Origin: Verrucomicrobium spinosum
GTDB lineage: Bacteria; Verrucomicrobiota; Verrucomicrobiia; JADLBR01; JAIBCM01
DNA length: 53,316 nt
NCBI GenBank assembly: GCA_020718645.1
Contig: DYRQ01000006.1
Location: forward strand, 1-53,316
Reading direction: 5' to 3'
Position 1 is the stretch's first letter; each line of letters starts with the position of its first letter. The notes beneath the pieces were generated by a model. The model saw only the letters and a program-made list of their open reading frames with translations. It searched no databases and was not told where the DNA came from. The position numbers were made by a program, and so were the translations under genes. Of the stretch, positions 1,613 to 53,315 are shown in pieces.

Positions 1613-3268
1613 ATGCAATTATTACGGTTCTGGCTCTTGTTCTGCCTTCTTGTGTCATCCTTCAACTGCTTCGCAGGGACGCCTCCCCTGAATATAGCCG
1701 CACCCGATGCTGTCGCGCCGCTCGAATCGCTGCCGGTTCAATCCGATGGACGCATCAAGCCCGCGCTGTCGTTTGCCAAAGAAAAACTGACCGCGATCTA
1801 CGGACGCGCCTCTTTCAAATTACCCGACGGCACGCGCATTCCTGCACTGGCTGTCACCTTGGATCTCCTGGCACGCCCGGAGGTTTGGAAGAAAACCGAG
1901 ATTGTTCTCGTTGAGGAAGCCACCCTCCGCGCCGCGGTTGGGCTACCCGCAAAACGGCGATATTTTTCACTCGAAGAACTCGCCGCAAACGAGGCTTTGC
2001 AGTCGCTCGTGCAACAGGCAAAAATCCGCAGGGCTGCGGGCACAAAAATCTCGGGTGTAGAACAAGTCTCACTCCAAGTGGATGCGCGACTCCACCTCCT
2101 CACCGAGCTGCTGGAGGGACAACTATTTCGTCCTGTGCCCAACCCGCACCACCCCAAAAAACTCTGGGGCACACCCGCCGATGCCGCGTCACTTTATCCC
2201 GGCCAAGGCGCTGAGGTGACCGCTGCTTGGGAACAGTTCCGGCTCTTGGTGCCCTCGGGTGATTCCACCTCTCTCCGCACGAGCGCCAGCAAATTCGCAC
2301 AAGCCTGCTCCGTTTTGAAACCGGAATTTCTACCTTCCCAAAGCGTCGTGTTCACTGAAGTTTTCTACAACAAAAGCCATCCATTTCGCCTCGCCTGGAT
2401 CGCCTTACTGCTCGCCTCGATCGTGCTGATGACCACTTCTCTTCAACAGGGTGGCAGCGGTTATAAACTCGGCTGGTGGCTGGCGTGCGCCGGGCTGGGT
2501 TTCGTGGTGGTGGGCATGCTCGCGCGACTGTATATTTCAGGCCGCCCACCCGTTACGAACATGTATGAATCGGTGGTCTGGCTAGCCTTCGGCGTGATGG
2601 CATTTGGCTTGAGTTACGAGTGGCGATACCGTTGTCGCTGGTATCTGGCCAGCGCCTGCCCGCTAGCGGCCTTGGCTTTGATACTGGCAGACTCGCAACC
2701 CGCCATCCTCGACGCCTCGATCAAGCCGCTGGTGCCTGTGTTGCGCAGTAATTTTTGGCTCACGGTGCATGTGCTCACCATCACCCTGAGCTACGCCGCT
2801 TTTGCCCTAGCGACAGCCGTGGCACACGCGGTCTTGGGGAGCCTCTGTTTCCTCGGAAAAGAACCGGCAGCAGCACTGCACGGCTACCTCTACAAAGTGC
2901 TCCAAATCGGCGTCCTCCTGCTCGCGATTGGCATCGTGCTCGGCGGGGTATGGGCCAATTATTCTTGGGGCCGTTTCTGGGATTGGGATCCGAAAGAAAC
3001 TTGGTCGCTGGTGGCGTTATTGAGTTACCTCTTTTTGCTCCACGGCAGGCTACTCGGATGGTGGCGCGGATTTGGAATGGCAGCGGGTGCCATCCTCTGT
3101 TTTCAGACCGTGCTCTTTGCTTGGTATGGGGTGAACTTTATCTTGGCCACAGGGCTGCACAGCTACGGCTTCGGCGCAGGCGGCACGACTTACATCGCCA
3201 TCTATCTCGGAGCTGAAACCGCATTTCTCGTGGCTGCTTGGATCATGAAATCCAAGGTCAGCCGGTAG
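1613..3268 (+). CDS. ccsA: Cytochrome c biogenesis protein CcsA/ResC (system II) with large N-terminal periplasmic domain
   Basis: WWD motif WGRFWDWDPKETW, TM histidine in LTVHV, GLHSYG, GRPPVTNMYES, multiple TM segments. Confidence 0.92.
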   Translation: MQLLRFWLLFCLLVSSFNCFAGTPPLNIAAPDAVAPLESLPVQSDGRIKPALSFAKEKLTAIYGRASFKLPDGTRIPALAVTLDLLARPEVWKKTEIVLVEEATLRAAVGLPAKRRYFSLEELAANEALQSLVQQAKIRRAAGTKISGVEQVSLQVDARLHLLTELLEGQLFRPVPNPHHPKKLWGTPADAASLYPGQGAEVTAAWEQFRLLVPSGDSTSLRTSASKFAQACSVLKPEFLPSQSVVFTEVFYNKSHPFRLAWIALLLASIVLMTTSLQQGGSGYKLGWWLACAGLGFVVVGMLARLYISGRPPVTNMYESVVWLAFGVMAFGLSYEWRYRCRWYLASACPLAALALILADSQPAILDASIKPLVPVLRSNFWLTVHVLTITLSYAAFALATAVAHAVLGSLCFLGKEPAAALHGYLYKVLQIGVLLLAIGIVLGGVWANYSWGRFWDWDPKETWSLVALLSYLFLLHGRLLGWWRGFGMAAGAILCFQTVLFAWYGVNFILATGLHSYGFGAGGTTYIAIYLGAETAFLVAAWIMKSKVSR

Positions 3269-3387
3269 GAATAGTGGCCGATAGATTATAAAATCGGAGG
3301 CATCTGTGGAGACACAGTGCGCGGATCGTTTCGACTGCGTTTTCAGCTCCAGCTCCTGCGGAGTAAACGCTCTGAGCGGTTGGACAA

Positions 3388-4119
3388 CTATTGTCCTGCA
3401 CCCAGCAAGGACGCCTTCACCCCGGTGGGCAGCTCCCCTTGGGTATTGGGGATTTTAATGCGCAGGCGCACGGTATTGCTTGCCGCGTCGGTCACAGGTG
3501 AAACGAACTCCACCACACCGCGAACCTCTGCGCCGACATCCCCCACAGAGACGCGCACCGGCTGATCTTTGGAGTATTGACGCGCCTCGGTCGGAGGTAG
3601 GAACAGCTGCACCAAGAGATTATTCAACTCCACGACAGTAAAGATGTAGGGCACCGCGGGAGTCATACTTTCCGAGAGTTTGCGTTTCACCTCCGTAACC
3701 ACCCCATCGCACGGACTGCGAATGGTGCGCAGTTCGATTTCAGCCTCGACTGCTGCGACTTTGTTGCGCTGCACCTCCAGCTCCATCCGCGCTTTGTCGT
3801 ATTCCTCGGGAGAGAGACGACCCGATTTTTTTAGCTCTTCAAATTTCTCAAAGCGGGTTGCAAAAAACTCCGCCTGCGCTTTGGCGATACCCAACTCCGC
3901 CTCGAACCGCCGACAATCTAGGCGAGCGAGCAATTGCCCCACCTGAACCCGATCCCCTTCTTTTACGGGCATTTCGCGCAGGATGCCAGTCTCAGAGAGA
4001 GAGAGCTTATAGGAGTTGTAAGGCTCCAAGTAGCCAAAAGAGACCGCGTGGTCGCTGGGATTGGCACCCGCAAAACTCAGCGCCAACAGCCAAAAAGCGA
4101 TGGGCGCAACTCGGATCAC
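3388..4119 (-). CDS. Efflux/secretion periplasmic adaptor (membrane fusion protein, HlyD/RND-MFP family)
   Basis: Lipoyl half-motifs GILREMPVKEGDRVQVGQLLARLD and IRSPCDGVV around a short helical hairpin; GVVEFVSPVTDAASNTVRLRIKIPN; signal peptide; overlaps the TolC stop by 4 nt. Confidence 0.9.
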   Translation of the reverse strand: MIRVAPIAFWLLALSFAGANPSDHAVSFGYLEPYNSYKLSLSETGILREMPVKEGDRVQVGQLLARLDCRRFEAELGIAKAQAEFFATRFEKFEELKKSGRLSPEEYDKARMELEVQRNKVAAVEAEIELRTIRSPCDGVVTEVKRKLSESMTPAVPYIFTVVELNNLLVQLFLPPTEARQYSKDQPVRVSVGDVGAEVRGVVEFVSPVTDAASNTVRLRIKIPNTQGELPTGVKASLLGAGQ

Positions 4120-5924
4120 TTGGCTAAACCGGCGTCAGCCTTGGTCTCTGATACCGGCTCTGCTGCGGAGGTAGGCGCCCCTGTCACTGGGCCGTTCACC
4201 TTCAAGACATTGACAGGAAGCCCGTCCTCGCCTTGCTGTTTCACTAGGCTGATATTTTCATAGGCCAGCAGATTGCCCTGAGCCCGCTCCAGCGCAACTT
4301 GGGCGATGGCATAGGTGGCTATGCTGCGGAGAAAATCTTCTTCGGCACGGGAGAGGCGATCTTGGGAATCGAGGAAGAAATCCAAGAAGCTCATGGTGGC
4401 ACCCTCGGCACCGGCCTGCACGGCACGGCGCTGGCGCAGATCTTCCAACTCCTCGATGGCAGATGCCATGACCTCGTATTTGGCCACAATATCACGCCAG
4501 GCAGTGCGCACCTCGCGGGCGGCAACTTTTACTTCGAGCAACACTGTCTCGACTGTCGTGCGGAACTGGGCGTATTGCTGGCGCAACTCGATGCGGCGGC
4601 GATCCAGACGGGCATCTGCAATATTATTTTCGAGCGGAATTTCAAAATTGAGCCCGACCAAGAATCCCGGTCCACCCGTGCGAACTTGGCGGTTCATGGC
4701 ACCACCGACATCATCGCCTTCTTTTAATCCAGCGAGGTAGGTTTCTATGATCAAGTTGAGCGTCGGCAAGTGCTCGTTCTTCTGCATTTTCTCGCGGATA
4801 GCAGCGGAACGGAGCTGCTTGATCGCCTGAGAAATTTCAGGGCGATGCTCTATGGCATGCAGGGCGCAAGCCTTCAGATCCACAGGCACCTCGTTCAGTG
4901 CCAAGGCATCAGCAGGGATCAGTTCCATGTTGGATGCCAAGTTAAAATCAGGGTCGTTGAGCAGGGACTTCACACGATCTTGCGAGTTGCGAATAGCTAT
5001 CTCGGAACGCACCAAGCTAGCCATGCGATCAGCGTAGGCGGAACGGGCGCGCAGCACTTGGGTGCGATTGGCGTCCACATCTTGCCGGGCGTCATACTCA
5101 CCGACAATCTTGGCGGTTTCTTGCACCAGACGCTTCTGCTGCACATGCAGGGAACGGGACATGTAGAGAGTCCAATACGAGCGGCAAATCTCCATGAGAT
5201 GCGACTCGATCTGGCGGAGCGCCTCGTGCTGAGCTATCTCCGAATCGAGCTTGGCGATATGGATAATGCTGCGGTTGTAATTGACGCCGGCACCTTTGAG
5301 CAGGGGCTGGACGACCGAGAGCTTGAGCTTGCTGGCCGCTTGTGGATTAGGGGTAAAAAACTCCGAATTATTCTGCGTGCGACTCATCTCCTGTGAGAGA
5401 GAGAACTCGGCACCGGTCACAGCGCGTTTGCGCAGACCGGCCTCGACCGACCACTGCTCCTGCTCGAACCGTCCGATGTTCCCGGTGGTCAGCGTGCTGC
5501 CGACGGGATCGTCTTGGGAATCAAATTTCGATTCAACAAAAGCGCGGGTGTCAAAGGCACCCTTGGCCTCTTGGATGCCCGTCTCGCGAATGAGCGGAAT
5601 ATCGGAGAATACTTTGATCTGCGTCGAGTGCTCGATTGCGGAGAGATAGAGACTTTCCGTCGGCATGGCTTTGGGCTCGGAATCAGCAAACATCTGCTGG
5701 GACACATTCACATGCCACCATGGCGAGAAATTGGCAGGCATTTTCTCAGGCACAGCGGTAGAAACCTGATATTCCAGAGTTGTCGCCTCTGCTTTGAAGC
5801 CACTCAAAATCGCTTCCAGTTCGGGATCAACATCCTTCTGGATCACGGGCTCGTAGCCAGAGCTGTTTGAGACTGCTCCCACGAGCAGCACCGCCAATAT
5901 CAATCGTGTAATTATCGTATTCAC
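4116..5924 (-). CDS. TolC-family outer membrane channel with N-terminal extension
   Basis: Signal peptide and two TolC-like repeats (EAKGAFDTRAF...LSVVQPLLKGAG; NEHLPTLNL...GLNFEIPLENNIA...VKVAAREV). Confidence 0.9.
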   Translation of the reverse strand: MNTIITRLILAVLLVGAVSNSSGYEPVIQKDVDPELEAILSGFKAEATTLEYQVSTAVPEKMPANFSPWWHVNVSQQMFADSEPKAMPTESLYLSAIEHSTQIKVFSDIPLIRETGIQEAKGAFDTRAFVESKFDSQDDPVGSTLTTGNIGRFEQEQWSVEAGLRKRAVTGAEFSLSQEMSRTQNNSEFFTPNPQAASKLKLSVVQPLLKGAGVNYNRSIIHIAKLDSEIAQHEALRQIESHLMEICRSYWTLYMSRSLHVQQKRLVQETAKIVGEYDARQDVDANRTQVLRARSAYADRMASLVRSEIAIRNSQDRVKSLLNDPDFNLASNMELIPADALALNEVPVDLKACALHAIEHRPEISQAIKQLRSAAIREKMQKNEHLPTLNLIIETYLAGLKEGDDVGGAMNRQVRTGGPGFLVGLNFEIPLENNIADARLDRRRIELRQQYAQFRTTVETVLLEVKVAAREVRTAWRDIVAKYEVMASAIEELEDLRQRRAVQAGAEGATMSFLDFFLDSQDRLSRAEEDFLRSIATYAIAQVALERAQGNLLAYENISLVKQQGEDGLPVNVLKVNGPVTGAPTSAAEPVSETKADAGLAK

Positions 5925-5949
5925 TTTTATCTGTTACTCTCTCTTTGTA

Positions 5950-8900
5950 TCAATATCCCGAAGCCGTGGCTTGGGCAGCTAAAAATTCTGATTCGTGGGC
6001 GCTGAAATCCATACGCACAGGGCGATTCATATAATCCATGAGGATCATCACCGTGCCCACGGAGCGTTTACCAAAAATATTGGCGACATCTACACCTTCG
6101 TAGAAGAATTCACCAGCCTGCAAAGCGGGCGCAAAGAAGGCGCGAATGTTGTAATTACCATCGCCAGATGAGTTGTAGCTCGGATTGGTGGTGCTGATGG
6201 ATACCGAACGGGGATAGTCCGTAATCACAGCATTCGGGAAAGTCGCCAGCCAGTTACCACCCGAGTCAGCCACAACAGTCTGAGTGCCTATCACATCACC
6301 TTTAGCGCCAACCATGACCAACACCAATGTGGAACCAGGATCCGATTTACCACTGTAGATAGGAGCCAGCGGCAGCAGCGGTTGAGCATAGGGAAGGATA
6401 CGCTCTTCAGGACGGAAGATTGGGCGTTGGCGGGGTTCTAGATTGCCGGTCTTATCCAGAGCTTCATCCGGCTCTACACGGAAAGTGCTTGTGACCAGAT
6501 GGGATATTGCCGTGGTAGGGGTAGTGGTAGGCGTCGGGGTGGGTGTAGGCGTCGGGGTTGGCGGGGTGACAGCCGGGGGTATCTTATAACCGAAATCCAC
6601 ATCCGTGCGATTCTGACCCGCAGTCAGGGTAACAGCTGTAGCTGCGTTAGCCGAAACCAAACCATCGAGGTCATAAGTTTGGGTGGTGTAAGTTCCGAGC
6701 GTAGAAGTATCCACGCGGACGATATAAGTTCCCGCTACGAGACCACCGATGGTGTAGCTGCCTGCGCCGTTGGTAATAGCCGTGCTTTCGCCCACATCGT
6801 AGATGCCATCGTTGTCAGCGTCCAAGTAAACTCGGACACCGGCAATACCGGCCTCGCCACCATCTTGCACGCCGTCACCGTCCACATCATGCCAGACAAA
6901 ATCCCCAAGGCTTGCTGCTACGGCTGGGGTGGTCAGGCGGACGGTATCTTGGGCGAAATCCGTGGTGGCGTTATGCACCTCGTTAGCGGTGACAGCGCCG
7001 TAGTCCCGGTCATTGGTGCCATCTGCGGCATAGCGGGAGTCAGCGTCCGGCGTGCCCGAGAGTGTGTGCGCTTCATCGCCGGCCAAATCATCCCAGTAGA
7101 TTTTCGCTGTATTCTCGAGGGTAGCATTGAGCCCGACCCAGGCCGAAACCGTGCCTGTGTAAGTGATCGTGATCGTGCTGCCCACAGCGAGCTGGTCGAG
7201 GGAAAGAACGATGTTGTTGCCCGCAGAGGTATTCGAATTCACCGTGGCACCAGTCACATTGATCGAGGCAACATTCAGCGTGATGTCCGCAGGCAAACTA
7301 TCACGCACAGCGATATCGTAAGCTGTCTGCGTGCTGGCAGCGCGGTGATCAATCGTCAGCGTATAAGTCACCACTTGGCCAGGACTGACCACATCGTCGG
7401 CATCATTCTCCGCCTTGGTAATCTGCAAGATGGGTTCCACCACGGTTACAGGGACATTGGGTGTGGTGGCATCGGGCGTAGCCCCGCCTGGCACATTGAC
7501 AGAGGCCTGATTGTTGAGAACAGTTTGGCTACCACTGGCACCGACATTACCCGCCACATCGAGGACAAGCGCCTGCAACGAGATGGTAAAGCTGTTGTTG
7601 GTGGTAACATTATCTGCGACCACAGAAACAGTGCTAAAGGTCCAGATCACATCATCGCCACTGCCGCTGCCACCCGTCTGATTGAAGTTCACGCCACTGG
7701 TGGCGATGGTGCCATTAAAGGAGGCTGTATTGAACGAAGCACTGCCCGTTACATAGGACAATCCGGCTGGCAGGAGATCCGTTACGGTCACCGTGCCCAC
7801 TGGTCCTTCCGGTAGAGTCACAGTGATAGTATAAGTCACCGTCTCGCCAATAGCGACATTCGAGCCTGTGGTTCCAGCTTGGTCAGTGGCGGAAAGAACC
7901 TTAGTGATTGTCGGAGTGCTTACAGTCGTGCTGACAACAGTAGAGGTATCAGCATAATCGTTCAGCGCGCCACCCTCGCCATCTGCACCTGTGCGCTCAT
8001 CAGCATCGCTGCCGTCCACAGCACCGCTGTTCAAGCTGGTCCATGTCGCTGTAGCTGAGTTGGAAATCGTCTGGTTTGGGACAACATCCGTATCGAGATT
8101 ACCAGAAACAGTGTAAGTCTGCGAGGCACCAGCAGCCAAGGTTCCGATGGTCCAAGTATAGACGAGGCTATTACCATCAGAACCCGTGCTACCCGGAGTG
8201 CCAGTGGCGGAAGCCGAGCGGATGTCATTATTGATAGCGTCAGTCATGGACACATCAAACGCATCATAAGAACCTGTGTTCTGCACGACAATCTGGTAGG
8301 CGATAGCATCACCAGCATCCGATGGTGTAGTGGTAATCGTCTTGGTCACTGTAATGACAGGCTCACGGACGGTCACGATGGGGTCGTTGCCGGGCGTGCC
8401 ATCGGGTATAGCGACCGTGCCGCCCGTGTCGGGATTGGTGTAGGCGACTGAAGACTGATTTTCCAGCGTGGTGGAGGCTTGGTTGCCGACCACATTGGTC
8501 GTGATAGCTTGGACACGGATGATAAATGAGTTATCGCCACTGGCGCCATTGGCAGCAAGAGTGATGTTACCGAAAGCGAGTTGCATATCCACGCCGTCGT
8601 TACCCAAGGTGCCAGCACCGAAAGCCGTGACCGTAGGAGCCCCTAAAGCAGCACCAAAATCCGTAGTCATTTGTCCACCGCTAGCCGCGGCAGTGGTGAT
8701 GAGCTGATAACCCAAGCCGCCGTTGTAAGTGGTGTCCAGACGCAGACCCGAGGGAACAAGATCACGCACGGTCAGACCATTAGTCGTGCCTTCAGCCAAA
8801 GTGACTAAAATATCGTAGATGACCGACTCACCGATCACGACATTGGCAAGAGTCGTATGGGAGGCGCTCGTGTCATCATTCGTGATCGAGCCACCCTGGA

Positions 8901-11900
8901 ATCGCTTGTCCACCGAGGGGGCACCCACTTGCACAGCAAACTGCGCCCCAACTTCGTAGTTATTCAGGCCAGTGTTATAAACTGGGAAAGTGTTGTCAGT
9001 GGCAGTCACACTAGAACCGTCACGGGCTCCATCAGCAGCTCCTGAAGCTCCTGGCGTGGAGGAGCCAGTTGTATTCGCACCACCCACGGTTCCCGTGCCA
9101 CCCGGCAGTGAGGCATAAGAAACCAGGACATTATTAGAGAGAATATCCCCAGAGATAGCGGCGTCGCCTAGCTTCGCTGTCACGGTCACTGTGATATTTT
9201 TCACAGCACCACCGATGGCAGCTACATCCGGGAGTGAATCAAAGGTCAAAGTGAATGAACCACCAGCACCGGCCGTTACAGTGCGCGCTGTTTCAGACAC
9301 GCCAACAGGAATATTGGTGCCAGCAGCCGAGGCCGTAACACTGACCAGCTCAATACCGGCAGGCAGTGTGTCGGCCACTGTGATGTTATAAGCTGGCATC
9401 TGCACGATGCGACGCCATTGCATATTAGTGCCTGCGACATCAGGACCGAGCACATTGGTGATGCTTGAATACATTCCGAAACTCTGTCCGGATAGAGTGG
9501 TTCCCTGCTGGATATAAACTTGGTAGCCCAGAGGTATCTCAGACGAGTTATCGAAATCCGACACACGACGCAGGCTCGCAGTGCCTGCCACAGCAGTGAC
9601 TTCGTAGATGCCATTCTGGGTTTGAGTGCTTTGATTTTTTATCAGCACGCGATCCCCAACCACGAGCGCCACGCTGTCCAGTGTGGTGGCGATACCTGTG
9701 ATGGTAGCCTGTGATCCTGCTGCGCCAGTGAAACCAGCCAAGTTAGCCGTAGTGGCCACTTTGACGGCAGTGGAGTTCTGCACGAGCGCGAAAGCAAGAG
9801 CTGTAGTGTTGAGCGTGACAGAGGCAGACTCTTGCAGGTAAACACGCCCTGAGTTCGTCGTGCCACCGCTCACGGCAAAGCGAGAATTATCAGTCACCTC
9901 GGCGTTTGCATCATAGTCAGGAGCACGATCGAGTATCACTGTATCCGTCTGTGCATCTACATAAAACACACGGTAAACACCGTTCTGAGTCCCTGTAGCC
10001 TGATCTTTGACCAGCACCCGGTCACCCGCGTTCAGAGAAACACCATCAATAGTGCGAGCAACCCCGGTAAACTGGCCTGTGCCACCCACTCCACTGGCAG
10101 CGTTGTAAGTAGCTCCTGTCAATGCTGCCGTGGTGGCAACCTGAACGGACGGAATACCTGTAATTTCAAAAACCGGCTGGTTGGAGAAAGTAATGGTATA
10201 AGTGAAAGTATCACCTCCGTCAGCAGGCAGAGCCGAGGTCACCTGCGTCTTCAGGTTAGTGATCTGTGGTTCGACTACATTGACAGACACACTGCCGACA
10301 CCAGACGCCAGCGCATCGTTGGCGGAGTTAGCTTTGATATCCACCGTATTTGTGAGAGCAACTCCCGCTTGGTTAGCTGCGACATTTTCTACCAATGCGT
10401 TAAATTCGATGATGATATATTCTTTGTCAGCATCATTGTCTGAATTAACTATATCGCCGAGTTTGAACTGAGGGTCTGTGCCGCTGACATACGAATCAGT
10501 GTTGACAGTCAGGCTTGTGCTGGATCCGATGTTAACATTACCGAGCACAACTGTCACCGCGACAGAGGTCGGGTCATCCACTGTAGCAGAGGCGTTGGGA
10601 TCTGCCTGCCATGGTCCATTGGCCAAAGCTAGAGCCAAGGTCGAACCAGTTGGCTCCGACGAAGTAATACCGTTGTTAGTATCCGAGACAAAGGCGATTT
10701 TAGTGGTTCCGTCGTTGATAAAACGCATGCCGGTTGGCAGGTTGTCGTCCACGATCAAATTGGTCGTTGTGCCTTCGGGGATTTCGATCTGGATGCGATA
10801 GCGGACTATTTCACCGATAGCCACAGTGTTCGTCGTGCCTGCTAACCCAGTGCCAGGCTCGGAGGTGGCAACAATGGTCTTGGTCACAGCAAAGTTCGCG
10901 GTATTGATATCAGCTACTTCAGTCTTGTTGACCTGCAAGTGATCGTATCCACCTTCTTTGCCTGCGTATTTTGTCAGAGAGGCCGTGTTCCGAATATAGG
11001 CATCGGTCGGTGTCTGCGCTGTGAAATAGTTAGGAGAAACATTGGAGGAGAGCGTCAACTCGTAGCTGACAATGACAAAATTGAAACCATCAGTCCGCTC
11101 ACTTGCATCCTGATTCAAACCACGATTCAAACCGCCCTGTTTGCTCTCGCCGCCATCCGCATCAGCGTAGTTATCTACCAGTTCAATCGAAAAGGTGTTG
11201 GCGCCATCATTCCATGTCAGATTGTAACCCACGCCATGCACGAGCGCCGTGCGATCGCCCCGTTGCACGACGAGGTTGGTCGCCGTGATAAACTGGTTGG
11301 CCGTCAGCGCACCGGGATCCACAAACTGAGCTAGGATAGTATCTTCAAAAGTAACATCGTAAGCATCGGAACGACCTGTATTGCCCACAATGAGGGCATA
11401 GCGGACTTTATCTCCGGCATCAGGAAGTGTTCCAGTAGTCAAGTTGCTGTTACTGAAAGTTGTGGCATCAGCCACGGCATCCATCACACCCGCAGTGACA
11501 CCTGTGCCAGCTCCGATAGCACCAAAGGTCAGCCCACCCAGAGTCGCTGATGCGATGACCCCAGCTTTTTCACTGGCAACGACACCCTTGTAAATTTCCA
11601 CATCAGGCTCATTGAGCACGATCTGGATGATCGAGTCTGCCACCTGTTTTGATCCGGGCGACTGAGTATTTTCTTCCTCTGAACGGACTTGGTTGGTCAG
11701 GTAAAGACCATCTGCAAACGGATCGTCATCCACCGTCACGGTGAACATGAAATCAGCCTTCAACTGGGTATTAGCACCGTAGTCGTAGTCTAGCCCCGGA
11801 TAGAAACGGAGACTGTTGTTCGTAGCATCCACTGACGCAACAGCCGGAGTGTGTCCACTGGCCGCTGTAAAAGTATCTGTAGAACCAAGAATGACATGTC

Positions 11901-14232
11901 CAGTTGCTGGGGCACTGCCAGCCCAAGCGCCGTCATACACCCACTCTCCGAGCCCACCGGCGGCACCGTCAGTGTTGGGATCGTTGGCCTTGTAAACCGG
12001 CATCGGCAGGTAGTCTGTAAAAGCGAGGTTTTCTACATCGCCAGTAGGAATAGTATATTCAATTCGATAAGTGACCGTATCCCCTGGGCTCACTTGCACC
12101 TGACCACTAACGATAGGAAGTGTCGTGCTCCCGTTGACTGCGTAGATGGTCTTGGTTAGCACACCTGATGTGATGGTCACATCGGCACCACTATCATCAA
12201 TGGGCGTGTTCGTGGAGGCTCCTCCGTCACTATCCGCGAGTGTGTCGTTGTCCAACACTCGTCCGGTGATCTCGACATCGTTTGTTAAAACATCACGGGG
12301 GTTCACTGGAGACTCGCCACTGGGGTAGTCCTCTTCAAAGTTGTTTTGGATGACGAGACGGAACTTCAAAGTGCCAGTAGTCGCACCGAAAGGCAAAGCC
12401 CCAGGAGCCACAAGTGGGTTATTGTAATCCGTAGGATCCGCTGTGCCCTTCACGCCGCCACCGAGCAACATGCCGTCCACGCCACCTAGACCATCGCCAT
12501 CCCAATTCAGGCGAATCAATTCGTTGGAAATATTGAACGAGAGCTGGCGACCGCCCTCCAGCGTCACATCGTTATTGTTGTCCGTTCCATCGCCGAGCAA
12601 AGTCTGGGACCAGTTTGTGGCAGCAAAAGCTCCCGTCCCGCTGGCTCCAGTGAACGAGCTGTTGGTGATCGAACTACCATGAGAAGTGATGTTCAGAATC
12701 GGGGCGAAAGTTGTGTCGAGACGCAAACCATCGGAATACAGATCCGTTATGACAAGGTTGTCGAAGGCAAAGTAGTCCGATACCTGAAAATTCAAAGTAT
12801 ATTCCAGCGTGTTACCCACATTGTAAGTGCTGTTGCCAGTAGTGACATTTGACACTGATTTCTGGATGGCGATAGACTGCGCTTGCAGGGTGTGCTCGTG
12901 GTCGCCGTCAAGCACAGGATTTGCCGGATTCAGCGGGTTGCCATCCACTGTAGCTTGGTCGGCAGTGCGAATGTCCGAATCGCGGGTGTCTAGCGGATCC
13001 CAAACCCCGTGTCCGTAAGCCTCGTTGAAGTGGTTTTCAAAAGCACCTGTCGTGGCATTGAGCACGGCGTTGCCATCACCATCAATGCGAGGAACGAAAA
13101 ATGAAAACTCTATGTAGGCATCCACTGAAGCAGTCCCACCCAACACGGGGTTGTCAAACAAGATTTCCAATGTGCCACCGGGACTGGTGGTTAACACGGT
13201 ATGGTTGACCGTAGTAGAGTAGGCTGCAGAACTACCCGTGAAGGCGACAAACTGCATCGCATCAGGAATACCGTCTCCAGCGAGCCCAGGCATCACATCG
13301 GCCAGAGTCAAACTCGACAGCGTCTGGCCATTGGCAATGTCCACATTAATGCGGTAGCGGCGCTCAAAATTTGGGCCGGTGGCCGTCTCGTCTTCAGGAC
13401 CAATATACTGCTTGGTCACCGTCATGATGGAAGGTTTGGCATGATCAGAACTTGCCGCCCCAAAAATGGTTTGTTCGACAGGGAGCGACCCGCCTCCATC
13501 GGGATCAACCCCCGGATTATCCAAAGGATCATTTCCGTAACGGAACCCACCGCGAGCTGTGACTTCTAGCTCAGTCACTGTCGCGTTGGTCGAGTCGTAG
13601 AGATCCGCCTGATTGCTCATGCTGGCATCAATAGTGATAGTCGCAGCGGGCTGATCGGCAGCAAAACTACCAAACGGCAGTTCGATCACGATGATCTGAT
13701 CCCCGTTCTGGTAACGGCCACCTAACCAAGCATCAGTCGTCTTGATGTAAATACCATTTCCGGAGGAATCCTTAGCGTAGGGATGGAGAACACCATCGGT
13801 GGCATCAAGGGAGTCACCGTCATTGTTGCTGTCGTCGTCGAGAGTCAATATCTGGTAATTGACATTGGACCCAAGGTATTTGACCTTGCCAGAGGCTCCG
13901 ACCGTGATGCCATCCGCCACAGAGGTCCAAGTGTTGGTCTGAGAGTTGTAAACACCATCGGCACCTGTGCGATCAATCGCTAGGTCAATGAACGGGCCGT
14001 AGCCCTCTTGGGTGGCATGGGTGTTGTCAAAGTTGACTTGAATCTGAAAATCCTCACCTATTTTAGGATCTGGTGTCGTGACAGAAACCGTAGGCGTAGC
14101 ACTGTAGAGAATACGATTTTCGAGCGTTTCCAAAACCAGTTGTGACTTTTTCGCTCCGCGAGCACGCGCCGACCCTGACGCCAGTTCCCCGCCAGCCCAG
14201 CTCTTCAACTTGTCTGCCAATTTTGCAATCAT
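5950..14232 (-). CDS. Giant secreted adhesin-like protein, 2760 aa: LEPRxLL motif, about 10 isopeptide-type/DUF11-like Ig modules, SdrD B-like domain, PT linker, C-terminal Ig-like domain
   Basis: LETLENRILYS near the N terminus; repeated K...GExVxYxIxV...DxLPxG...NxA modules; GDFVWHDVDGDGVQDGGEAGI (SdrD B-like); PIYSGKSDPGS...VVADSGGNW (Ig-like); directly upstream of TolC and the adaptor. Confidence 0.88.
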   Translation of the reverse strand: MIAKLADKLKSWAGGELASGSARARGAKKSQLVLETLENRILYSATPTVSVTTPDPKIGEDFQIQVNFDNTHATQEGYGPFIDLAIDRTGADGVYNSQTNTWTSVADGITVGASGKVKYLGSNVNYQILTLDDDSNNDGDSLDATDGVLHPYAKDSSGNGIYIKTTDAWLGGRYQNGDQIIVIELPFGSFAADQPAATITIDASMSNQADLYDSTNATVTELEVTARGGFRYGNDPLDNPGVDPDGGGSLPVEQTIFGAASSDHAKPSIMTVTKQYIGPEDETATGPNFERRYRINVDIANGQTLSSLTLADVMPGLAGDGIPDAMQFVAFTGSSAAYSTTVNHTVLTTSPGGTLEILFDNPVLGGTASVDAYIEFSFFVPRIDGDGNAVLNATTGAFENHFNEAYGHGVWDPLDTRDSDIRTADQATVDGNPLNPANPVLDGDHEHTLQAQSIAIQKSVSNVTTGNSTYNVGNTLEYTLNFQVSDYFAFDNLVITDLYSDGLRLDTTFAPILNITSHGSSITNSSFTGASGTGAFAATNWSQTLLGDGTDNNNDVTLEGGRQLSFNISNELIRLNWDGDGLGGVDGMLLGGGVKGTADPTDYNNPLVAPGALPFGATTGTLKFRLVIQNNFEEDYPSGESPVNPRDVLTNDVEITGRVLDNDTLADSDGGASTNTPIDDSGADVTITSGVLTKTIYAVNGSTTLPIVSGQVQVSPGDTVTYRIEYTIPTGDVENLAFTDYLPMPVYKANDPNTDGAAGGLGEWVYDGAWAGSAPATGHVILGSTDTFTAASGHTPAVASVDATNNSLRFYPGLDYDYGANTQLKADFMFTVTVDDDPFADGLYLTNQVRSEEENTQSPGSKQVADSIIQIVLNEPDVEIYKGVVASEKAGVIASATLGGLTFGAIGAGTGVTAGVMDAVADATTFSNSNLTTGTLPDAGDKVRYALIVGNTGRSDAYDVTFEDTILAQFVDPGALTANQFITATNLVVQRGDRTALVHGVGYNLTWNDGANTFSIELVDNYADADGGESKQGGLNRGLNQDASERTDGFNFVIVSYELTLSSNVSPNYFTAQTPTDAYIRNTASLTKYAGKEGGYDHLQVNKTEVADINTANFAVTKTIVATSEPGTGLAGTTNTVAIGEIVRYRIQIEIPEGTTTNLIVDDNLPTGMRFINDGTTKIAFVSDTNNGITSSEPTGSTLALALANGPWQADPNASATVDDPTSVAVTVVLGNVNIGSSTSLTVNTDSYVSGTDPQFKLGDIVNSDNDADKEYIIIEFNALVENVAANQAGVALTNTVDIKANSANDALASGVGSVSVNVVEPQITNLKTQVTSALPADGGDTFTYTITFSNQPVFEITGIPSVQVATTAALTGATYNAASGVGGTGQFTGVARTIDGVSLNAGDRVLVKDQATGTQNGVYRVFYVDAQTDTVILDRAPDYDANAEVTDNSRFAVSGGTTNSGRVYLQESASVTLNTTALAFALVQNSTAVKVATTANLAGFTGAAGSQATITGIATTLDSVALVVGDRVLIKNQSTQTQNGIYEVTAVAGTASLRRVSDFDNSSEIPLGYQVYIQQGTTLSGQSFGMYSSITNVLGPDVAGTNMQWRRIVQMPAYNITVADTLPAGIELVSVTASAAGTNIPVGVSETARTVTAGAGGSFTLTFDSLPDVAAIGGAVKNITVTVTAKLGDAAISGDILSNNVLVSYASLPGGTGTVGGANTTGSSTPGASGAADGARDGSSVTATDNTFPVYNTGLNNYEVGAQFAVQVGAPSVDKRFQGGSITNDDTSASHTTLANVVIGESVIYDILVTLAEGTTNGLTVRDLVPSGLRLDTTYNGGLGYQLITTAAASGGQMTTDFGAALGAPTVTAFGAGTLGNDGVDMQLAFGNITLAANGASGDNSFIIRVQAITTNVVGNQASTTLENQSSVAYTNPDTGGTVAIPDGTPGNDPIVTVREPVITVTKTITTTPSDAGDAIAYQIVVQNTGSYDAFDVSMTDAINNDIRSASATGTPGSTGSDGNSLVYTWTIGTLAAGASQTYTVSGNLDTDVVPNQTISNSATATWTSLNSGAVDGSDADERTGADGEGGALNDYADTSTVVSTTVSTPTITKVLSATDQAGTTGSNVAIGETVTYTITVTLPEGPVGTVTVTDLLPAGLSYVTGSASFNTASFNGTIATSGVNFNQTGGSGSGDDVIWTFSTVSVVADNVTTNNSFTISLQALVLDVAGNVGASGSQTVLNNQASVNVPGGATPDATTPNVPVTVVEPILQITKAENDADDVVSPGQVVTYTLTIDHRAASTQTAYDIAVRDSLPADITLNVASINVTGATVNSNTSAGNNIVLSLDQLAVGSTITITYTGTVSAWVGLNATLENTAKIYWDDLAGDEAHTLSGTPDADSRYAADGTNDRDYGAVTANEVHNATTDFAQDTVRLTTPAVAASLGDFVWHDVDGDGVQDGGEAGIAGVRVYLDADNDGIYDVGESTAITNGAGSYTIGGLVAGTYIVRVDTSTLGTYTTQTYDLDGLVSANAATAVTLTAGQNRTDVDFGYKIPPAVTPPTPTPTPTPTPTTTPTTAISHLVTSTFRVEPDEALDKTGNLEPRQRPIFRPEERILPYAQPLLPLAPIYSGKSDPGSTLVLVMVGAKGDVIGTQTVVADSGGNWLATFPNAVITDYPRSVSISTTNPSYNSSGDGNYNIRAFFAPALQAGEFFYEGVDVANIFGKRSVGTVMILMDYMNRPVRMDFSAHESEFLAAQATASGY
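6513..6575 (-). repeat. Pro/Thr low-complexity linker inside the adhesin
   Basis: Encodes PPAVTPPTPTPTPTPTPTTTPTT; the 14-mer gtaggcgtcggggt occurs at 6527-6540 and 6545-6558. Confidence 0.85.
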
Positions 14233-14403
14233 TTTAACATTTTCCCTTAGGACTAAGTATTTTCACTAGTCTGCATCTGAGTTTTAGCAATGATTATTTT
14301 GTCACGCCTGATTATTATTAGATGATCATAAGCAGTTGTTTAACATGATTAGATTCTCTGATACCTGCATGAAGACGGGGTGCATTGAATTCAGCGATCA
14401 GCT

Positions 14404-16983: not shown

Positions 16984-17043
16984 TTGCAAAACACTCTACC
17001 TTTCCGCATTGAAAAACACGATAAAAAAATACCGCTGACAGAG

Positions 17044-18102
17044 CTACTTTTTCTTAGGCAGCATCTCAGGTCGAACTGTCACACGGTGCGTGGCCGTGCT
17101 CATTTCTTTCGGGGTCGCCAACTCGGGCATGTAATCCGGATCACGCGCGTTGCTCAACCGCCCAGTGTAGGGGCAATAGGCTCTCCACGCCCCGCCAACT
17201 TTATTCCAGTAGATGACTTGGGCCACCGCCGTCTTACCTTCCTCCAGACTCAAGAGCAGTCGTGCCGACGCCTGCCCTGCCACATCCCTCTCAGCAGAGA
17301 GCAGACGCACGCGGCTGCGAAGCGTGCCACCGGCAACAGGAGTGTAGAACAACTCAGTGCCCGATGGGAGCAAGTAGATTGGTGCAAGCCAAGGCTGTTG
17401 CACCACCCCCAGCGGGTCAAAATGTATTTCCCAATAGCCATCCTGCGCACCAGCACGAGCCAGCAGCTTCAGCTCAACACCTGATTCTGTCTTGTTCCAC
17501 TGACCCTCTGCCACGACAGCAGATCCACTCCCCCGGGCGTCCACGCGTTGGAACTCACGAATTTTAAAAGCGGCGCCTTGTTCTACATTCAAAATCGGGG
17601 CGCAGACAAAACCTGACCCATACTCCCATCGCGCGGTCTTCAGCTCGAGAGAAAGACGCAAAGAAGCTTTGGTGCCTCTCTGGCAGAGAGGTAATTCCGA
17701 CGCGGCCATGGATCCCCCCACGCTCACAGGTGAACCCGGCGAGGGTGCCACCCCCATGCGCCATTTTTCGAAACCTTCAAAAAGCAGGAACACCGTAGCG
17801 TCAAATTTCTTCGTCAGGTTGTTCGTGACCGTCACTGTAAAAGGCACACGATCCGCTTGGCTGACTCGAGAGACGGATCGGGTCACCTCCACCACAGCAG
17901 CAGCCAACTCGGTATCCTCATCCACCTGATCTGGATCGGGAACAGCAGGAGTCGGGGAGGGAGCCGCGCTTTCCGCAGGCACCAAGGATGCCGCCGTGGA
18001 TTCTGGTAACTCATCGCCACCGGTCTGGGCTAGCACGGGTGCAGCACCGCACAGGGCGGTTATCGCTATCCCAATCATTCTTCTAATAAATCGCGTTGCC
18101 AT
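17044..18102 (-). CDS. Hypothetical secreted protein
   Basis: 352-aa ORF filling the gap between GH31 and pheS; signal-peptide-like N terminus (IGIAITALCGAAPVLA), Pro/Glu linker, beta-rich body. No family recognised; the start could be 18078. Confidence 0.7.
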   Translation of the reverse strand: MATRFIRRMIGIAITALCGAAPVLAQTGGDELPESTAASLVPAESAAPSPTPAVPDPDQVDEDTELAAAVVEVTRSVSRVSQADRVPFTVTVTNNLTKKFDATVFLLFEGFEKWRMGVAPSPGSPVSVGGSMAASELPLCQRGTKASLRLSLELKTARWEYGSGFVCAPILNVEQGAAFKIREFQRVDARGSGSAVVAEGQWNKTESGVELKLLARAGAQDGYWEIHFDPLGVVQQPWLAPIYLLPSGTELFYTPVAGGTLRSRVRLLSAERDVAGQASARLLLSLEEGKTAVAQVIYWNKVGGAWRAYCPYTGRLSNARDPDYMPELATPKEMSTATHRVTVRPEMLPKKK

Positions 18103-53243: not shown

Positions 53244-53315
53244 GCCGGCTTAGCTCAGTGGTAGAGCAACGGTTTTGTAAACCGTCGGTCATCGGTTCGA
53301 ATCCGATAGCCGGCT
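53244..53315 (+). tRNA. tRNA-Thr (anticodon UGU)
   Basis: Cloverleaf: acceptor GCCGGCT/AGCCGGC, D arm GCTC-AGTGGTA-GAGC, anticodon stem ACGGT-TTTGTAA-ACCGT, T arm ATCGG-TTCGAAT-CCGAT. The base after the discriminator is T, so CCA is not encoded. Confidence 0.97.

What the first reader, a model, noticed from the sequence alone, without database searches (positions are those of the whole stretch)
3388..14232. Giant LEPRxLL protein + TolC + short adaptor with no ABC transporter and no RTX signal: candidate non-canonical secretion system
Seen: adhesin, TolC (25 bp gap) and adaptor (4-nt overlap) form one operon that ends convergent to ccsA, so no ABC or RND pump is encoded here. The cargo has no Sec-type hydrophobic signal and no GGxGxDxL RTX repeats, but has a basic N-terminal leader ending in LETLENRILYS (14101-14139). 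The adaptor is only 243 aa and starts with a signal-like peptide, lacking the cytoplasmic N-tail of HlyD. Established: type I secretion needs ABC + MFP + TolC and reads a C-terminal signal; the LEPRxLL / planctomycete extracellular motif is of unresolved function. Inference: an N-terminal-motif-directed TolC export pathway whose inner-membrane energiser is non-ABC or encoded in trans.
Basis: partly seen in the sequence, partly recalled or inferred. Interest (0 to 1): 0.75.

Follow-up and report, generated by a model that had tools for sequence, protein, structure and literature searches.

The report
Giant adhesin with SecA-like TolC exporter
A 2,760-residue surface protein with an unusual non-hydrophobic N-terminal leader sits beside the outer-membrane channel and small adaptor of a little-known, never-tested secretion machine that uses a SecA-like ATPase where type I secretion uses an ABC pump; this points to what that machine exports.

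Summary
Three co-oriented genes on the minus strand encode a 2,760-aa protein with a LEPR-XLL leader, a divergent TolC and a 243-aa adaptor. No ABC or RND pump lies in the 53-kb window.

The pair is not an orphan. The short adaptor and this TolC subtype belong to a widespread module: TolC, truncated SecA-like ATPase, short adaptor, GAF-adaptor fusion, M50-type protease-adaptor fusion, sometimes DUF3467. Kamneva et al. (2015) described it from genomics, role unknown. In relatives at 44-50% identity (L005, L098, L105) the SecA-like gene lies in the same cluster as TolC and the adaptor, next to an orthologous giant gene.

New here: giant genes beside the module carry LEPR-type leaders. In homologues the leader takes the place of a Sec signal peptide. 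A conserved C-terminal domain co-occurs with the leader.

Best reading: cargo plus outer half of this exporter, with the inner-membrane parts encoded elsewhere. I could not verify that for this genome. All evidence is comparative.

The parts
14233..14403 (-). AT-rich intergenic region upstream of the giant gene; candidate promoter and ribosome-binding site
   Evidence: 171-nt gap after the GH31 gene. A sigma-70-like match (TAAACA-17-AATAAT) lies at 14342-14314, and AAGGGA sits about 13 nt before the ATG. These are consensus matches only.
14101..14232 (-). N-terminal leader (aa 1-44): basic, non-hydrophobic stretch ending in the LEPR-XLL-type motif LVLETLENRILYS (14101-14139)
   Evidence: NF012209 at 19.1 bits, cut-off 17. 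My own leader HMM scores 20.6 bits. Controls gave 0 reversed and 2 shuffled hits at 9 bits or more among 7,932 ORF N-termini. The most hydrophobic 12-residue window upstream scores 0.10 on the Kyte-Doolittle scale.
5950..14232 (-). Giant secreted or surface protein gene (2,760 aa): LEPR leader, FDNT/GYGP N-domain, DUF11 and isopeptide-type repeats, SdrD_B domain, Pro/Thr linker, conserved C-terminal domain
   Evidence: The protein has no cysteine, 299 D+E against 117 K+R, and no RTX motif. Orthologues lie in L002 (P0206), L005 (P0208) and L105 (P0215).
12733..14100 (-). Mature N-terminal domain (aa ~45-500) with no Pfam match, shared with Sec-signal-bearing homologues in other phyla
   Evidence: 149 homologues: 18 LEPR-type, 57 Sec-type, 36 truncated, 9 ambiguous. 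The LEPR motif ends 30-35 aa before the G[YF]GP anchor. No Pfam hit.
6586..9381 (-). Repeat region: DUF11/CLIPPER repeats, isopeptide-forming D2-type domains, bMG10-like and SdrD B-like domains (aa ~1618-2549)
   Evidence: PF01345 x4, TIGR04226 x4, TIGR01451 x5, PF17973, PF17210.
5953..6549 (-). Conserved C-terminal domain (aa ~2562-2760): Ig-like sandwich plus a ~75-aa tail ending ...YEF......G.P.GY
   Evidence: No Pfam or PDB sequence match. 317 clusters at 50% identity carry it, at the extreme C-terminus in nearly all of the 150 listed, in proteins up to 7,305 aa. It co-occurs with LEPR leaders. AF2 model: Ig-like part pLDDT ~88, tail below 50.
4116..5924 (-). Divergent TolC-family outer-membrane factor (602 aa) with an N-terminal signal peptide
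   Evidence: PF02321 OEP at 85 bits over 2 stretches; TIGR01844 only 34 bits against a cut-off of 225. It is 48-50% identical to the TolC genes that sit in the same cluster as SecA-like genes in L005, L098 and L105.
3388..4119 (-). Short periplasmic adaptor (243 aa): signal-like helix, lipoyl domain, MexA-length alpha-hairpin, beta-barrel; no membrane-proximal domain and no cytoplasmic tail
   Evidence: AF2 model at pLDDT 92. Foldseek best matches are MexA, AcrA and MacA, E 5e-16. The family sits next to a SecA-like gene in 33 of 39 loci.
3269..3387 (.). Convergent intergenic region that ends the gene cluster, facing the ccsB-type gene (1613-3268, +)
   Evidence: No convincing intrinsic terminator was found.

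Best explanation
The three genes encode a cargo and the outer half of a SecA-like-driven, TolC-dependent exporter. This is the module that Kamneva et al. (2015) found around 'secondary SecA_DEAD' proteins.

The full module, as seen in relatives, has five or six parts:
- a divergent TolC;
- a truncated SecA paralogue (NBD1, preprotein-binding domain, NBD2; no wing domain, two-helix finger or C-terminal tail);
- a short periplasmic adaptor;
- a cytoplasmic-GAF / one-TM / adaptor fusion;
- a fusion of a small N-terminal domain, a polytopic HExxH (M50-type) intramembrane protease and an adaptor;
- often a DUF3467 protein.

Proposed mechanism (inferred, not shown):
1. The giant, acidic, cysteine-free protein is kept unfolded and engaged through its basic LEPR-XLL leader.
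2. The SecA-like ATPase pushes it N-terminus first through an inner-membrane assembly built from the M50 and GAF fusions.
3. The three adaptor types bridge the periplasm to TolC, so export happens in one step.
4. The M50-type domain is related to RiPP leader peptidases and may remove the leader near ...LYSA|TP.
5. The conserved C-terminal domain emerges last and may hold the adhesin at the channel, a mirror image of LapA-type retention.

In this genome the SecA-like, M50 and GAF genes are not in the window and would have to act in trans.
For: **Conserved triad.** L001 and L002-L004 keep the order giant, TolC, short adaptor, at 51-57% protein identity.

**Relatives that carry the rest of the machine** (TolC 48-50% and adaptor 44% identical to the window's):
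- L005: giant, TolC, SecA-like, adaptor, then M50 fusion, GAF fusion and DUF3467.
- L098: the same set.
- L105: giant divergent from TolC, SecA-like, adaptor. Its giant is 36-39% identical to the window giant over more than 2,000 aa.

**Scan anchored on the M50 fusion** (at least 596 loci, best 80 kept):
- GAF fusion in 74 loci, short adaptor in 49, SecA-like in 39, TolC in 25.
- Taxa are mostly Planctomycetota and Verrucomicrobiota.

**Scan anchored on the short adaptor**: 33 of 39 informative loci have an adjacent SecA-like gene.

**No ABC exporter.** None of 184 loci holds a HlyB-type ABC gene.

**Cargo link.**
- 16 of the 80 module loci carry an adjacent ORF of 500 aa or more with an N-terminal LEPR motif.
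- 12 of 21 ORFs of 1,000 aa or more with a visible N-terminus have the motif.
- Controls: 0 reversed and 2 shuffled hits among 7,932 ORF N-termini, against 23 forward.
- L098, L105, L110, L153 and L183 add further cases.

**Leader behaves as an export signal.**
- Among 120 homologues of the mature N-domain, 18 have a LEPR leader with no hydrophobic stretch and 57 have a classical Sec signal peptide.
- Both kinds of leader are followed by the same conserved N-domain.
- Named LEPR-type homologues are Planctomycetota or Verrucomicrobiota. Sec-type homologues are Chloroflexi, Acidobacteria and others. That matches where the module occurs.

**Component features.**
- The M50 half matches NF041824 (daptide intramembrane metalloprotease) at E 1e-45 and NF058609 (YydH/LiaK). 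HExxH is present in 103 of 105 members.
- The SecA-like protein aligns to B. subtilis SecA residues 23-606 only. The Walker A motif GEGKT is present in 73 of 76 members.
- Adaptor fold.

**Prior literature.** PMC4452313.
Against: - Nothing here is experimental. Every step of the mechanism is inference from gene neighbourhood and homology.
- The SecA-like, M50 and GAF genes are absent from the 53-kb window. Two guesses at candidates from the same assembly (GCA_974337675.1) hit other genomes.
- The window, L001 and L002 all lack a SecA-like gene between TolC and the adaptor. This clade may therefore work differently, or with another energiser.
- Two LEPR-type homologues looked up in Planctomycetes (P0092, P0127) are not next to the module. 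The cis association is only partial.
- The strictly conserved C-terminal domain could itself be the signal.
- The PqqD-like hit in the M50 fusion is weak (E 0.067).
- Leader cleavage is untested.
Confidence: 0.6

Rival explanations
1. Classical type I secretion with the ABC transporter (and perhaps a long HlyD) encoded elsewhere. The conserved C-terminal domain or tail is the secretion signal, the protein leaves C-terminus first, and the LEPR motif has another role.
For: - TolC and an adaptor lie next to a giant, acidic, cysteine-free repeat protein, as in T1SS adhesin loci.
- A conserved C-terminal module ends in a low-confidence ~75-aa tail.
- T1SS genes are sometimes split across a genome (established knowledge).
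Against: - No HlyB-type ABC gene appears in any of 184 related loci.
- The adaptor family is coupled to SecA-like genes instead.
- The adaptor lacks the N-terminal cytoplasmic tail, the TM segment and the long hairpin of HlyD.
- There are no RTX repeats.
- The LEPR leader replaces Sec signal peptides in homologues.
Confidence: 0.1
2. The cargo does use the SecA-like module, but the C-terminal domain is the recognition signal. The LEPR motif is a retention, anchoring or processing tag rather than the targeting signal.
For: - The C-terminal domain co-occurs strictly with LEPR leaders in giant proteins. It lies at the extreme C-terminus in nearly all of the 150 listed matches, out of 317 clusters.
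- Giants that sit directly upstream of TolC carry it.
Against: - Some LEPR giants beside the module have a different C-terminus: L026 and L048 end in a TM-like segment with an FDPLPI motif.
- The leader occupies the position of a Sec signal peptide.
- SecA-type motors are known to act on N-terminal signals and to move substrate N to C (established knowledge).
Confidence: 0.15
3. In this clade (window, L001, L002) the SecA-like and other inner-membrane parts have been lost. TolC plus the short adaptor then act as a stand-alone outer-membrane dock or pore for the giant protein, which crosses the inner membrane by another route.
For: - Three lineages share TolC directly abutting the adaptor with no SecA-like gene between them.
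- No inner-membrane part was found within 53 kb of the window or in the 33.8-kb contig behind L001.
Against: - The giant has no Sec or Tat signal for crossing the inner membrane.
- Split modules are common. Verrucomicrobial loci often hold only the GAF and M50 fusions. L104 holds only the SecA-like gene and the adaptor. PMC4452313 also reports components encoded elsewhere in the genome.
Confidence: 0.1
4. Chance adjacency: TolC and the adaptor are part of an ordinary efflux pump and have nothing to do with the giant protein.
For: The adaptor passes the TIGR01730 RND_mfp threshold (123 bits against 94.9).
Against: - The synteny with giant LEPR genes recurs across phyla.
- No RND, ABC or MFS pump is adjacent in the window.
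- The adaptor lacks the membrane-proximal domain that contacts a pump.
Confidence: 0.03

Closest known systems
Secondary SecA_DEAD / type-I-like module of Planctomycetes, Verrucomicrobia and some Proteobacteria (Kamneva, Poudel & Ward 2015, PLoS One, PMC4452313)
   Same: The window's short HlyD/biotin-lipoyl adaptor and OEP protein belong to the families that are co-encoded there with the SecA_DEAD paralogue, the peptidase_M50-like HlyD protein and the GAF-HlyD protein. The taxa match, and so does the habit of splitting components over several loci.
   Different: - The window holds only TolC and the short adaptor, plus a cargo gene.
- That paper named no substrate and called the biological role 'completely unknown'.
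- Additions here: the link to LEPR-XLL giant proteins, the conserved C-terminal cargo domain, DUF3467, and the homology of the M50 half to RiPP leader peptidases.
Type I secretion of giant adhesins (HlyBD-TolC; LapA/LapBCE, MpIBP)
   Same: - One-step export through TolC and a periplasmic adaptor.
- Giant, acidic, cysteine-poor, Ig-like repeat cargo encoded next to the machinery.
- Possible retention of one terminus at the channel.
   Different: - No ABC transporter.
- The adaptor lacks HlyD's cytoplasmic tail, TM segment and long hairpin.
- No RTX repeats.
- The putative signal is N-terminal, so polarity would be reversed and any retention module would be C-terminal rather than N-terminal.
Accessory SecA2 systems of Gram-positive bacteria (SecA2/SecY2 export of serine-rich repeat adhesins)
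   Same: A second, specialised SecA paralogue dedicated to a small set of very large surface proteins with atypical N-terminal leaders.
   Different: - The paralogue here is truncated after NBD2. It aligns only to SecA residues 23-606.
- No SecY2 is present.
- Its partners are adaptors and TolC in a diderm envelope.
Peptidase-containing ABC transporters and RiPP leader peptidases (C39 PCATs; daptide and YydH/LiaK HExxH intramembrane proteases)
   Same: A non-Sec N-terminal leader would be recognised and removed by a protease built into the export apparatus. The M50 half matches NF041824 at E 1e-45 and NF058609.
   Different: - The cargo is thousands of residues long, not a peptide.
- The protease is fused to an adaptor domain, not to an ABC transporter.
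- Scores fall below the equivalog cut-offs.
- Cleavage is untested.
LEPR-XLL domain (NCBIfam NF012209) / Planctomycete extracellular motif (Pfam PF07595)
   Same: The window leader passes the NF012209 cut-off. A homologue (P0180) carries PF07595.
   Different: I found no published function for either model. 'LEPR-XLL' occurs in two unrelated papers and 'planctomycete extracellular' in none. This locus offers a candidate pathway for the motif.

Membership tests
Classical type I secretion system (ABC-MFP-OMF) | Dedicated HlyB-type ABC transporter | tested here: not met
   None among the 20 larger window ORFs scanned against Pfam. None in 184 related loci by an ABC-NBD profile. The rest of the genome was not searchable.
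Classical type I secretion system (ABC-MFP-OMF) | HlyD-type adaptor with an N-terminal cytoplasmic tail, a TM helix and a long alpha-hairpin | tested here: not met
   The adaptor is 243 aa, with a signal-like helix at residues 7-18 directly followed by the lipoyl domain. The hairpin helices are 29 and 27 residues. TIGR01843 scores 51 bits against a cut-off of 209.
Classical type I secretion system (ABC-MFP-OMF) | TolC-family outer-membrane factor | tested here: met
   PF02321 at 85.5 bits (cut-off 22), two OEP stretches. It is a divergent subtype: TIGR01844 scores 34 bits against 225.
Classical type I secretion system (ABC-MFP-OMF) | C-terminal uncleaved secretion signal, usually with RTX GGxGxD repeats | tested here: inconclusive
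   No GGxGxD motif. A conserved C-terminal domain with a poorly modelled tail does exist. Whether it acts as a signal cannot be decided in silico.
Secondary SecA_DEAD / type-I-like module (PMC4452313) | Short HlyD/biotin-lipoyl adaptor of the family co-encoded with the SecA_DEAD paralogue | tested here: met
   The window adaptor is 44-46% identical to the adaptors of L005, L098, L104 and L105, each of which sits next to a SecA-like gene. A SecA-like gene is adjacent in 33 of 39 family loci.
Secondary SecA_DEAD / type-I-like module (PMC4452313) | OEP/TolC of the module's subtype | tested here: met
   48-50% identity over more than 540 aa to the TolC genes in the same cluster as SecA-like genes in L005, L098 and L105. 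37-41% identity to those in L016, L025 and L065.
Secondary SecA_DEAD / type-I-like module (PMC4452313) | Truncated SecA_DEAD paralogue present | tested here: not met
   Absent from the window. Presence elsewhere in GCA_974337675.1 could not be examined with these tools.
Secondary SecA_DEAD / type-I-like module (PMC4452313) | Peptidase_M50-like adaptor fusion and GAF-adaptor fusion present | tested here: not met
   Absent from the window. Two guesses at same-assembly candidates hit other genomes. Split loci are common in this module.
LEPR-XLL domain proteins (NF012209) | N-terminal ~24-aa LEPRxLL-type motif in a very large protein | tested here: met
   19.1 bits against a cut-off of 17, at residues 32-54 of 2,760. 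The motif reads LETLENRILYS.
RND tripartite efflux pump | RND inner-membrane pump plus an adaptor with a membrane-proximal domain | tested here: not met
   No RND gene among the 20 larger window ORFs scanned. The adaptor matches only positions 18-239 of 322 in TIGR01730, and the model has no membrane-proximal domain.
Sec- or Tat-dependent secreted protein | Hydrophobic h-region, with or without a twin-arginine motif, in the N-terminal signal | tested here: not met
   The most hydrophobic 12-residue window in the leader scores 0.10 on the Kyte-Doolittle scale, and there is no RR motif followed by an h-region. Sec-type homologues reach 1.9 or more.

The most novel reading that the evidence does not exclude
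The LEPR-XLL / planctomycete extracellular leader is the targeting signal of a distinct one-step secretion pathway of diderm bacteria.

- A truncated SecA paralogue replaces the ABC transporter as the motor.
- A heteromeric set of three adaptors (short, GAF-fused, M50-protease-fused) couples to a dedicated TolC.
- The M50 domain acts as leader peptidase.
- A conserved C-terminal domain retains giant adhesins at the channel, with polarity opposite to LapA-type T1SS.

This window would then be a cargo-plus-outer-half locus of that pathway.
Probability: 0.4. Interest if true: 0.85.

Novelty: new member of a known kind. Interest (0 to 1): 0.68.

Why it matters
The SecA_DEAD / three-adaptor / TolC module is widespread. 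The M50 fusion alone gave at least 596 genome loci and more than 1,000 protein clusters. It has had no known substrate or function since it was noticed in 2015. LEPR-XLL and planctomycete-extracellular leaders head some of the largest bacterial proteins and also have no assigned pathway.

This locus and its relatives join the two open questions into one testable hypothesis: a non-ABC, SecA-like-powered, N-terminal-leader-directed route through TolC for giant surface proteins. If it holds, it would:
- add a new branch to the catalogue of Gram-negative secretion systems;
- explain how Planctomycetes and Verrucomicrobia display giant adhesins;
- give annotators a rule for predicting this secretome.

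Tried and rejected
**Search for an energiser in the window.** I found no ABC, RND or MFS pump among the 20 larger ORFs scanned.

**Literature.**
- 'LEPR-XLL' returned two unrelated papers.
- 'planctomycete extracellular' returned none.
- 'DUF3467' returned one unrelated paper.
- The Omnitrophota giant-gene preprint describes SecA-like domains fused inside giant proteins, which is a different arrangement.
- A search for later papers holding both 'Kamneva' and 'SecA_DEAD' found one unrelated paper and no functional follow-up.

**Finding the inner-membrane parts in the window's own assembly.**
- The assembly is GCA_974337675.1, contig CDCNCU010000010.1.
- None of the 80 genome loci comes from it.
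- Two candidates picked from the M50-fusion homologue list belong to other assemblies.
- Cluster look-ups show no accession numbers.
- The DNA runs that hold the window are metagenome contigs. I did not lay them on relatives because the expected nucleotide identity is below 80%.

**LEPR-type N-domain homologues in Planctomycetes.** P0092 and P0127 are not next to the module. The association is therefore not obligatory in cis.

**C-terminal domain.** No Pfam or PDB sequence hit. The AF2 tail has low confidence, so I ran no fold search on it.

**DUF3467.** No PDB sequence relative.

**Other dead ends.**
- A stricter leader regex under-called variants such as LEDRILC and LEDRVLY, so I used the HMM and direct reading instead.
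- The promoter and terminator scan gave nothing beyond consensus-level matches.
Full report
**1. The observation**

The minus strand carries three tightly packed genes.
- Giant ORF at 5950-14232 (2,760 aa).
- TolC-like ORF at 4116-5924 (602 aa), after a 25-bp gap.
- Adaptor ORF at 3388-4119 (243 aa), overlapping TolC by 4 nt (GTGA).

A CcsB-type cytochrome c assembly gene (1613-3268, +) is convergent downstream. A GH31 glycosidase gene lies upstream on the same strand, behind a 171-nt AT-rich spacer.

Family scans gave the following.
- TolC-like: two OEP stretches, PF02321 at 85 bits.
- Adaptor: HlyD_3, HlyD_D23 and TIGR01730 at 123 bits, but only model positions 18-239 of 322.
- Giant: DUF11/CLIPPER, isopeptide-D2, bMG10 and SdrD_B domains.
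- Giant residues 32-54: NF012209 (LEPR-XLL) at 19.1 bits, cut-off 17.

The leader MIAKLADKLKSWAGGELASGSARARGAKKSQ-LVLETLENRILYSATP is basic and has no hydrophobic core. The protein has no GGxGxD motif, no cysteine, and 299 acidic against 117 basic residues. None of the 20 larger window ORFs scanned against Pfam is a transporter energiser.

**2. The triad is conserved and belongs to a larger machine**

Homologues of the short adaptor form a small family of 233-300-aa proteins.

In L001 and L002-L004 the order giant, TolC, adaptor recurs. TolC is 55-57% identical to the window's and the adaptor 51-56%.

Relatives at 44-50% identity carry more parts.
- L005: giant (4,040 aa), TolC, a 611-aa SecA-like protein, the adaptor. 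On the other strand lie an M50-type protease-adaptor fusion (733 aa), a GAF-adaptor fusion (642 aa) and DUF3467.
- L098: the same set.
- L105: a giant gene divergent from TolC, SecA-like, adaptor. That giant is 36-39% identical to the window giant over more than 2,000 residues.

I ran two reciprocal surveys.
- Anchored on the M50 fusion in species-representative genomes: at least 596 loci. In the best 80, the GAF fusion occurs in 74, a short adaptor in 49, a SecA-like gene in 39 and this TolC subtype in 25. The usual orders are TolC, SecA-like, adaptor, GAF, M50, or adaptor, GAF, M50, SecA-like.
- Anchored on the short adaptor in metagenomes: 33 of 39 loci with enough flank have an adjacent SecA-like gene, and 27 have the M50 fusion.

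Carriers are mainly Planctomycetota and Verrucomicrobiota. There are also Thiotrichales and Beggiatoa, Desulfobulbaceae, Saprospiraceae and a few others.

An ABC-NBD profile found only seven small ABC ATPase ORFs in all 184 loci. None is HlyB-sized and none lies inside the module.

**3. The machinery is already in the literature**

[quoted passage not shown] These were co-encoded with three HlyD-domain proteins (peptidase_M50-like, HlyD/biotin-lipoyl, GAF-HlyD) and sometimes with OEP.

Their proposals and caveats were as follows.
- The SecA_DEAD protein replaces the ABC ATPase.
- The M50-like protein may form the membrane passage.
- Components can be encoded elsewhere in the genome.
- The biological role was 'completely unknown'.

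A search for later papers holding both 'Kamneva' and 'SecA_DEAD' found one unrelated paper and no functional follow-up. The window's TolC and adaptor are therefore members of a known, untested system.

**4. What the components look like**

- SecA-like protein. Median length is 664 aa. It aligns to B. subtilis SecA residues 23-606 only: NBD1, the preprotein cross-linking domain and NBD2. The wing domain, two-helix finger and C-terminal tail are missing. The Walker A motif GEGKT is kept in 73 of 76 members.
- M50 fusion. Its N-terminal half matches NF041824 (daptide intramembrane metalloprotease; 153-166 bits, E about 1e-45) and NF058609 (YydH/LiaK RiPP protease). HExxH is present in 103 of 105 members, and HExxH together with NxxPxxxDG in 93 of 105. 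A faint PqqD-like signal sits at its N-terminus (E 0.067).
- Window adaptor. The model is confident (pLDDT 92): a signal-like helix, lipoyl domain, hairpin of 29 and 27 residues, and beta-barrel. It superposes on MexA, AcrA and MacA (E 5e-16) but has no membrane-proximal domain.

**5. The cargo link (the new part)**

*Leaders next to the module.* I built a small HMM from 20 leaders.
- It finds an N-terminal LEPR-type motif in an adjacent ORF of 500 aa or more in 16 of the 80 M50-anchored loci.
- It finds the motif in 12 of 21 ORFs of 1,000 aa or more whose N-terminus is visible.
- Controls: 0 reversed and 2 shuffled sequences reach the threshold, against 23 forward.
- Direct reading adds L098, L105, L110, L153 and L183.
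- These genes lie either divergent from TolC or the SecA-like gene, or just downstream of the module.

*Leader in place of a Sec signal.* Among 120 homologues of the giant's mature N-domain:
- 18 carry a LEPR leader with no hydrophobic stretch;
- 57 carry a classical Sec signal peptide;
- 36 are truncated and 9 are ambiguous.

The LEPR motif ends 30-35 residues before a conserved G[YF]GP anchor (median 31). The Sec h-region ends a median of 48 residues before the same anchor. Both kinds of leader are thus followed by the same conserved N-domain.

Named LEPR-type homologues come from Planctomycetota and Verrucomicrobiota. Sec-type homologues come from Chloroflexi, Acidobacteria and others. That mirrors the distribution of the module.

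*Conserved C-terminal domain.*
- The giant's last ~145-195 residues are conserved in the giants directly upstream of TolC in L001, L002, L005, L025, L065 and L091.
- An exhaustive search found 317 clusters at 50% identity. The match lies at the extreme C-terminus in nearly all of the 150 listed, in proteins up to 7,305 aa.
- Of 64 hits of 1,400 aa or more, 28 pass the leader HMM and about 9 more are visibly LEPR-like.
- Most of the rest look N-terminally truncated. The only two with Sec-type signals matched through internal repeats.
- The AF2 model shows an Ig-like sandwich followed by a poorly predicted ~75-aa tail.

**6. Mechanism**

*Shown.* Gene content, synteny, domain architectures, motif conservation, and the positional equivalence of the leader and a Sec signal peptide.

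*Inferred.*
- The LEPR leader targets the unfolded giant protein to the SecA-like motor.
- The M50 and GAF fusions supply the inner-membrane part.
- Together with the short adaptor they bridge to TolC.
- The M50 domain may cleave the leader.
- The C-terminal domain, which emerges last, may retain the adhesin. That would be the reverse polarity of LapA-type T1SS.

In the window's clade the SecA-like gene is missing between TolC and the adaptor. The inner-membrane parts would have to be supplied in trans. This is plausible because split loci are common. Many verrucomicrobial loci hold only the GAF and M50 fusions. L104 holds only the SecA-like gene and the adaptor. The 2015 paper notes the same. 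It remains unverified for GCA_974337675.1.

**7. Weaknesses**

- All the evidence is comparative.
- Two LEPR-type homologues looked up in Planctomycetes are not near the module.
- The conserved C-terminal module keeps a C-terminal-signal model alive.
- The window clade might have lost the motor.

**8. Verdict**

This is a partial locus of the SecA_DEAD-associated, type-I-like module published in 2015, so it is a new member of a known (in silico) kind.

Its value lies in the cargo, which connects LEPR-XLL giant proteins and a conserved C-terminal domain to that orphan machinery. That makes both directly testable.

Noticed in passing
window 31919-35374 (+): A 1,151-aa protein with an N-terminal GYF_2 domain followed by about 1,000 residues of Glu/Gln/Ala/Leu-rich coiled coil. 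It coincides with the strongest AT skew (0.31) and GC skew in the window.
   Followed up: partly
L026 5186-12847 and L048 3-4745: L026 is a LEPR-leader giant beside the module. Its C-terminus is a hydrophobic TM-like segment followed by a conserved P.W..FDPLPI motif, not the window-type C-terminal domain. L048 shares that C-terminus, though its N-terminus is cut off. This suggests a second cargo class with another way of anchoring.
   Followed up: no
L005 14938-15261; L009 3522-3881; L098 7842-8120; L100 7652-7975 and others: A ~100-aa DUF3467 protein often sits directly upstream of the GAF-adaptor fusion. It is not mentioned in the sections of the 2015 paper that I read. It has no PDB sequence relative. 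A chaperone role is only a guess.
   Followed up: partly
L044 4764-6881 and 12521-14578: Two SecA-like genes flank one module in a Pirellulaceae MAG.
   Followed up: no
L009 10878-11546 and L010 10878-11546: A 2OG-Fe(II) oxygenase (PF13759) gene overlaps the end of the short-adaptor gene. It could modify the cargo.
   Followed up: no
P0193 (477 aa, ENA): This homologue of the giant's N-terminal region carries a precomputed Pfam hit to PF07516, the SecA wing/scaffold domain. It may be a chimeric gene call or a real fusion.
   Followed up: no
window 14404-16989 (-): A GH31 alpha-glucosidase/xylosidase-like gene (861 aa, TTG start) lies just upstream of the giant gene on the same strand, separated by a 171-nt AT-rich spacer. 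Co-transcription was not tested.
   Followed up: no
window 53244-53315 (+): tRNA-Thr (TGT) at the very end of the window.
   Followed up: no
window 17044-18102 (-): A 352-aa ORF with no Pfam family, lying between the GH31 gene and pheS.
   Followed up: no
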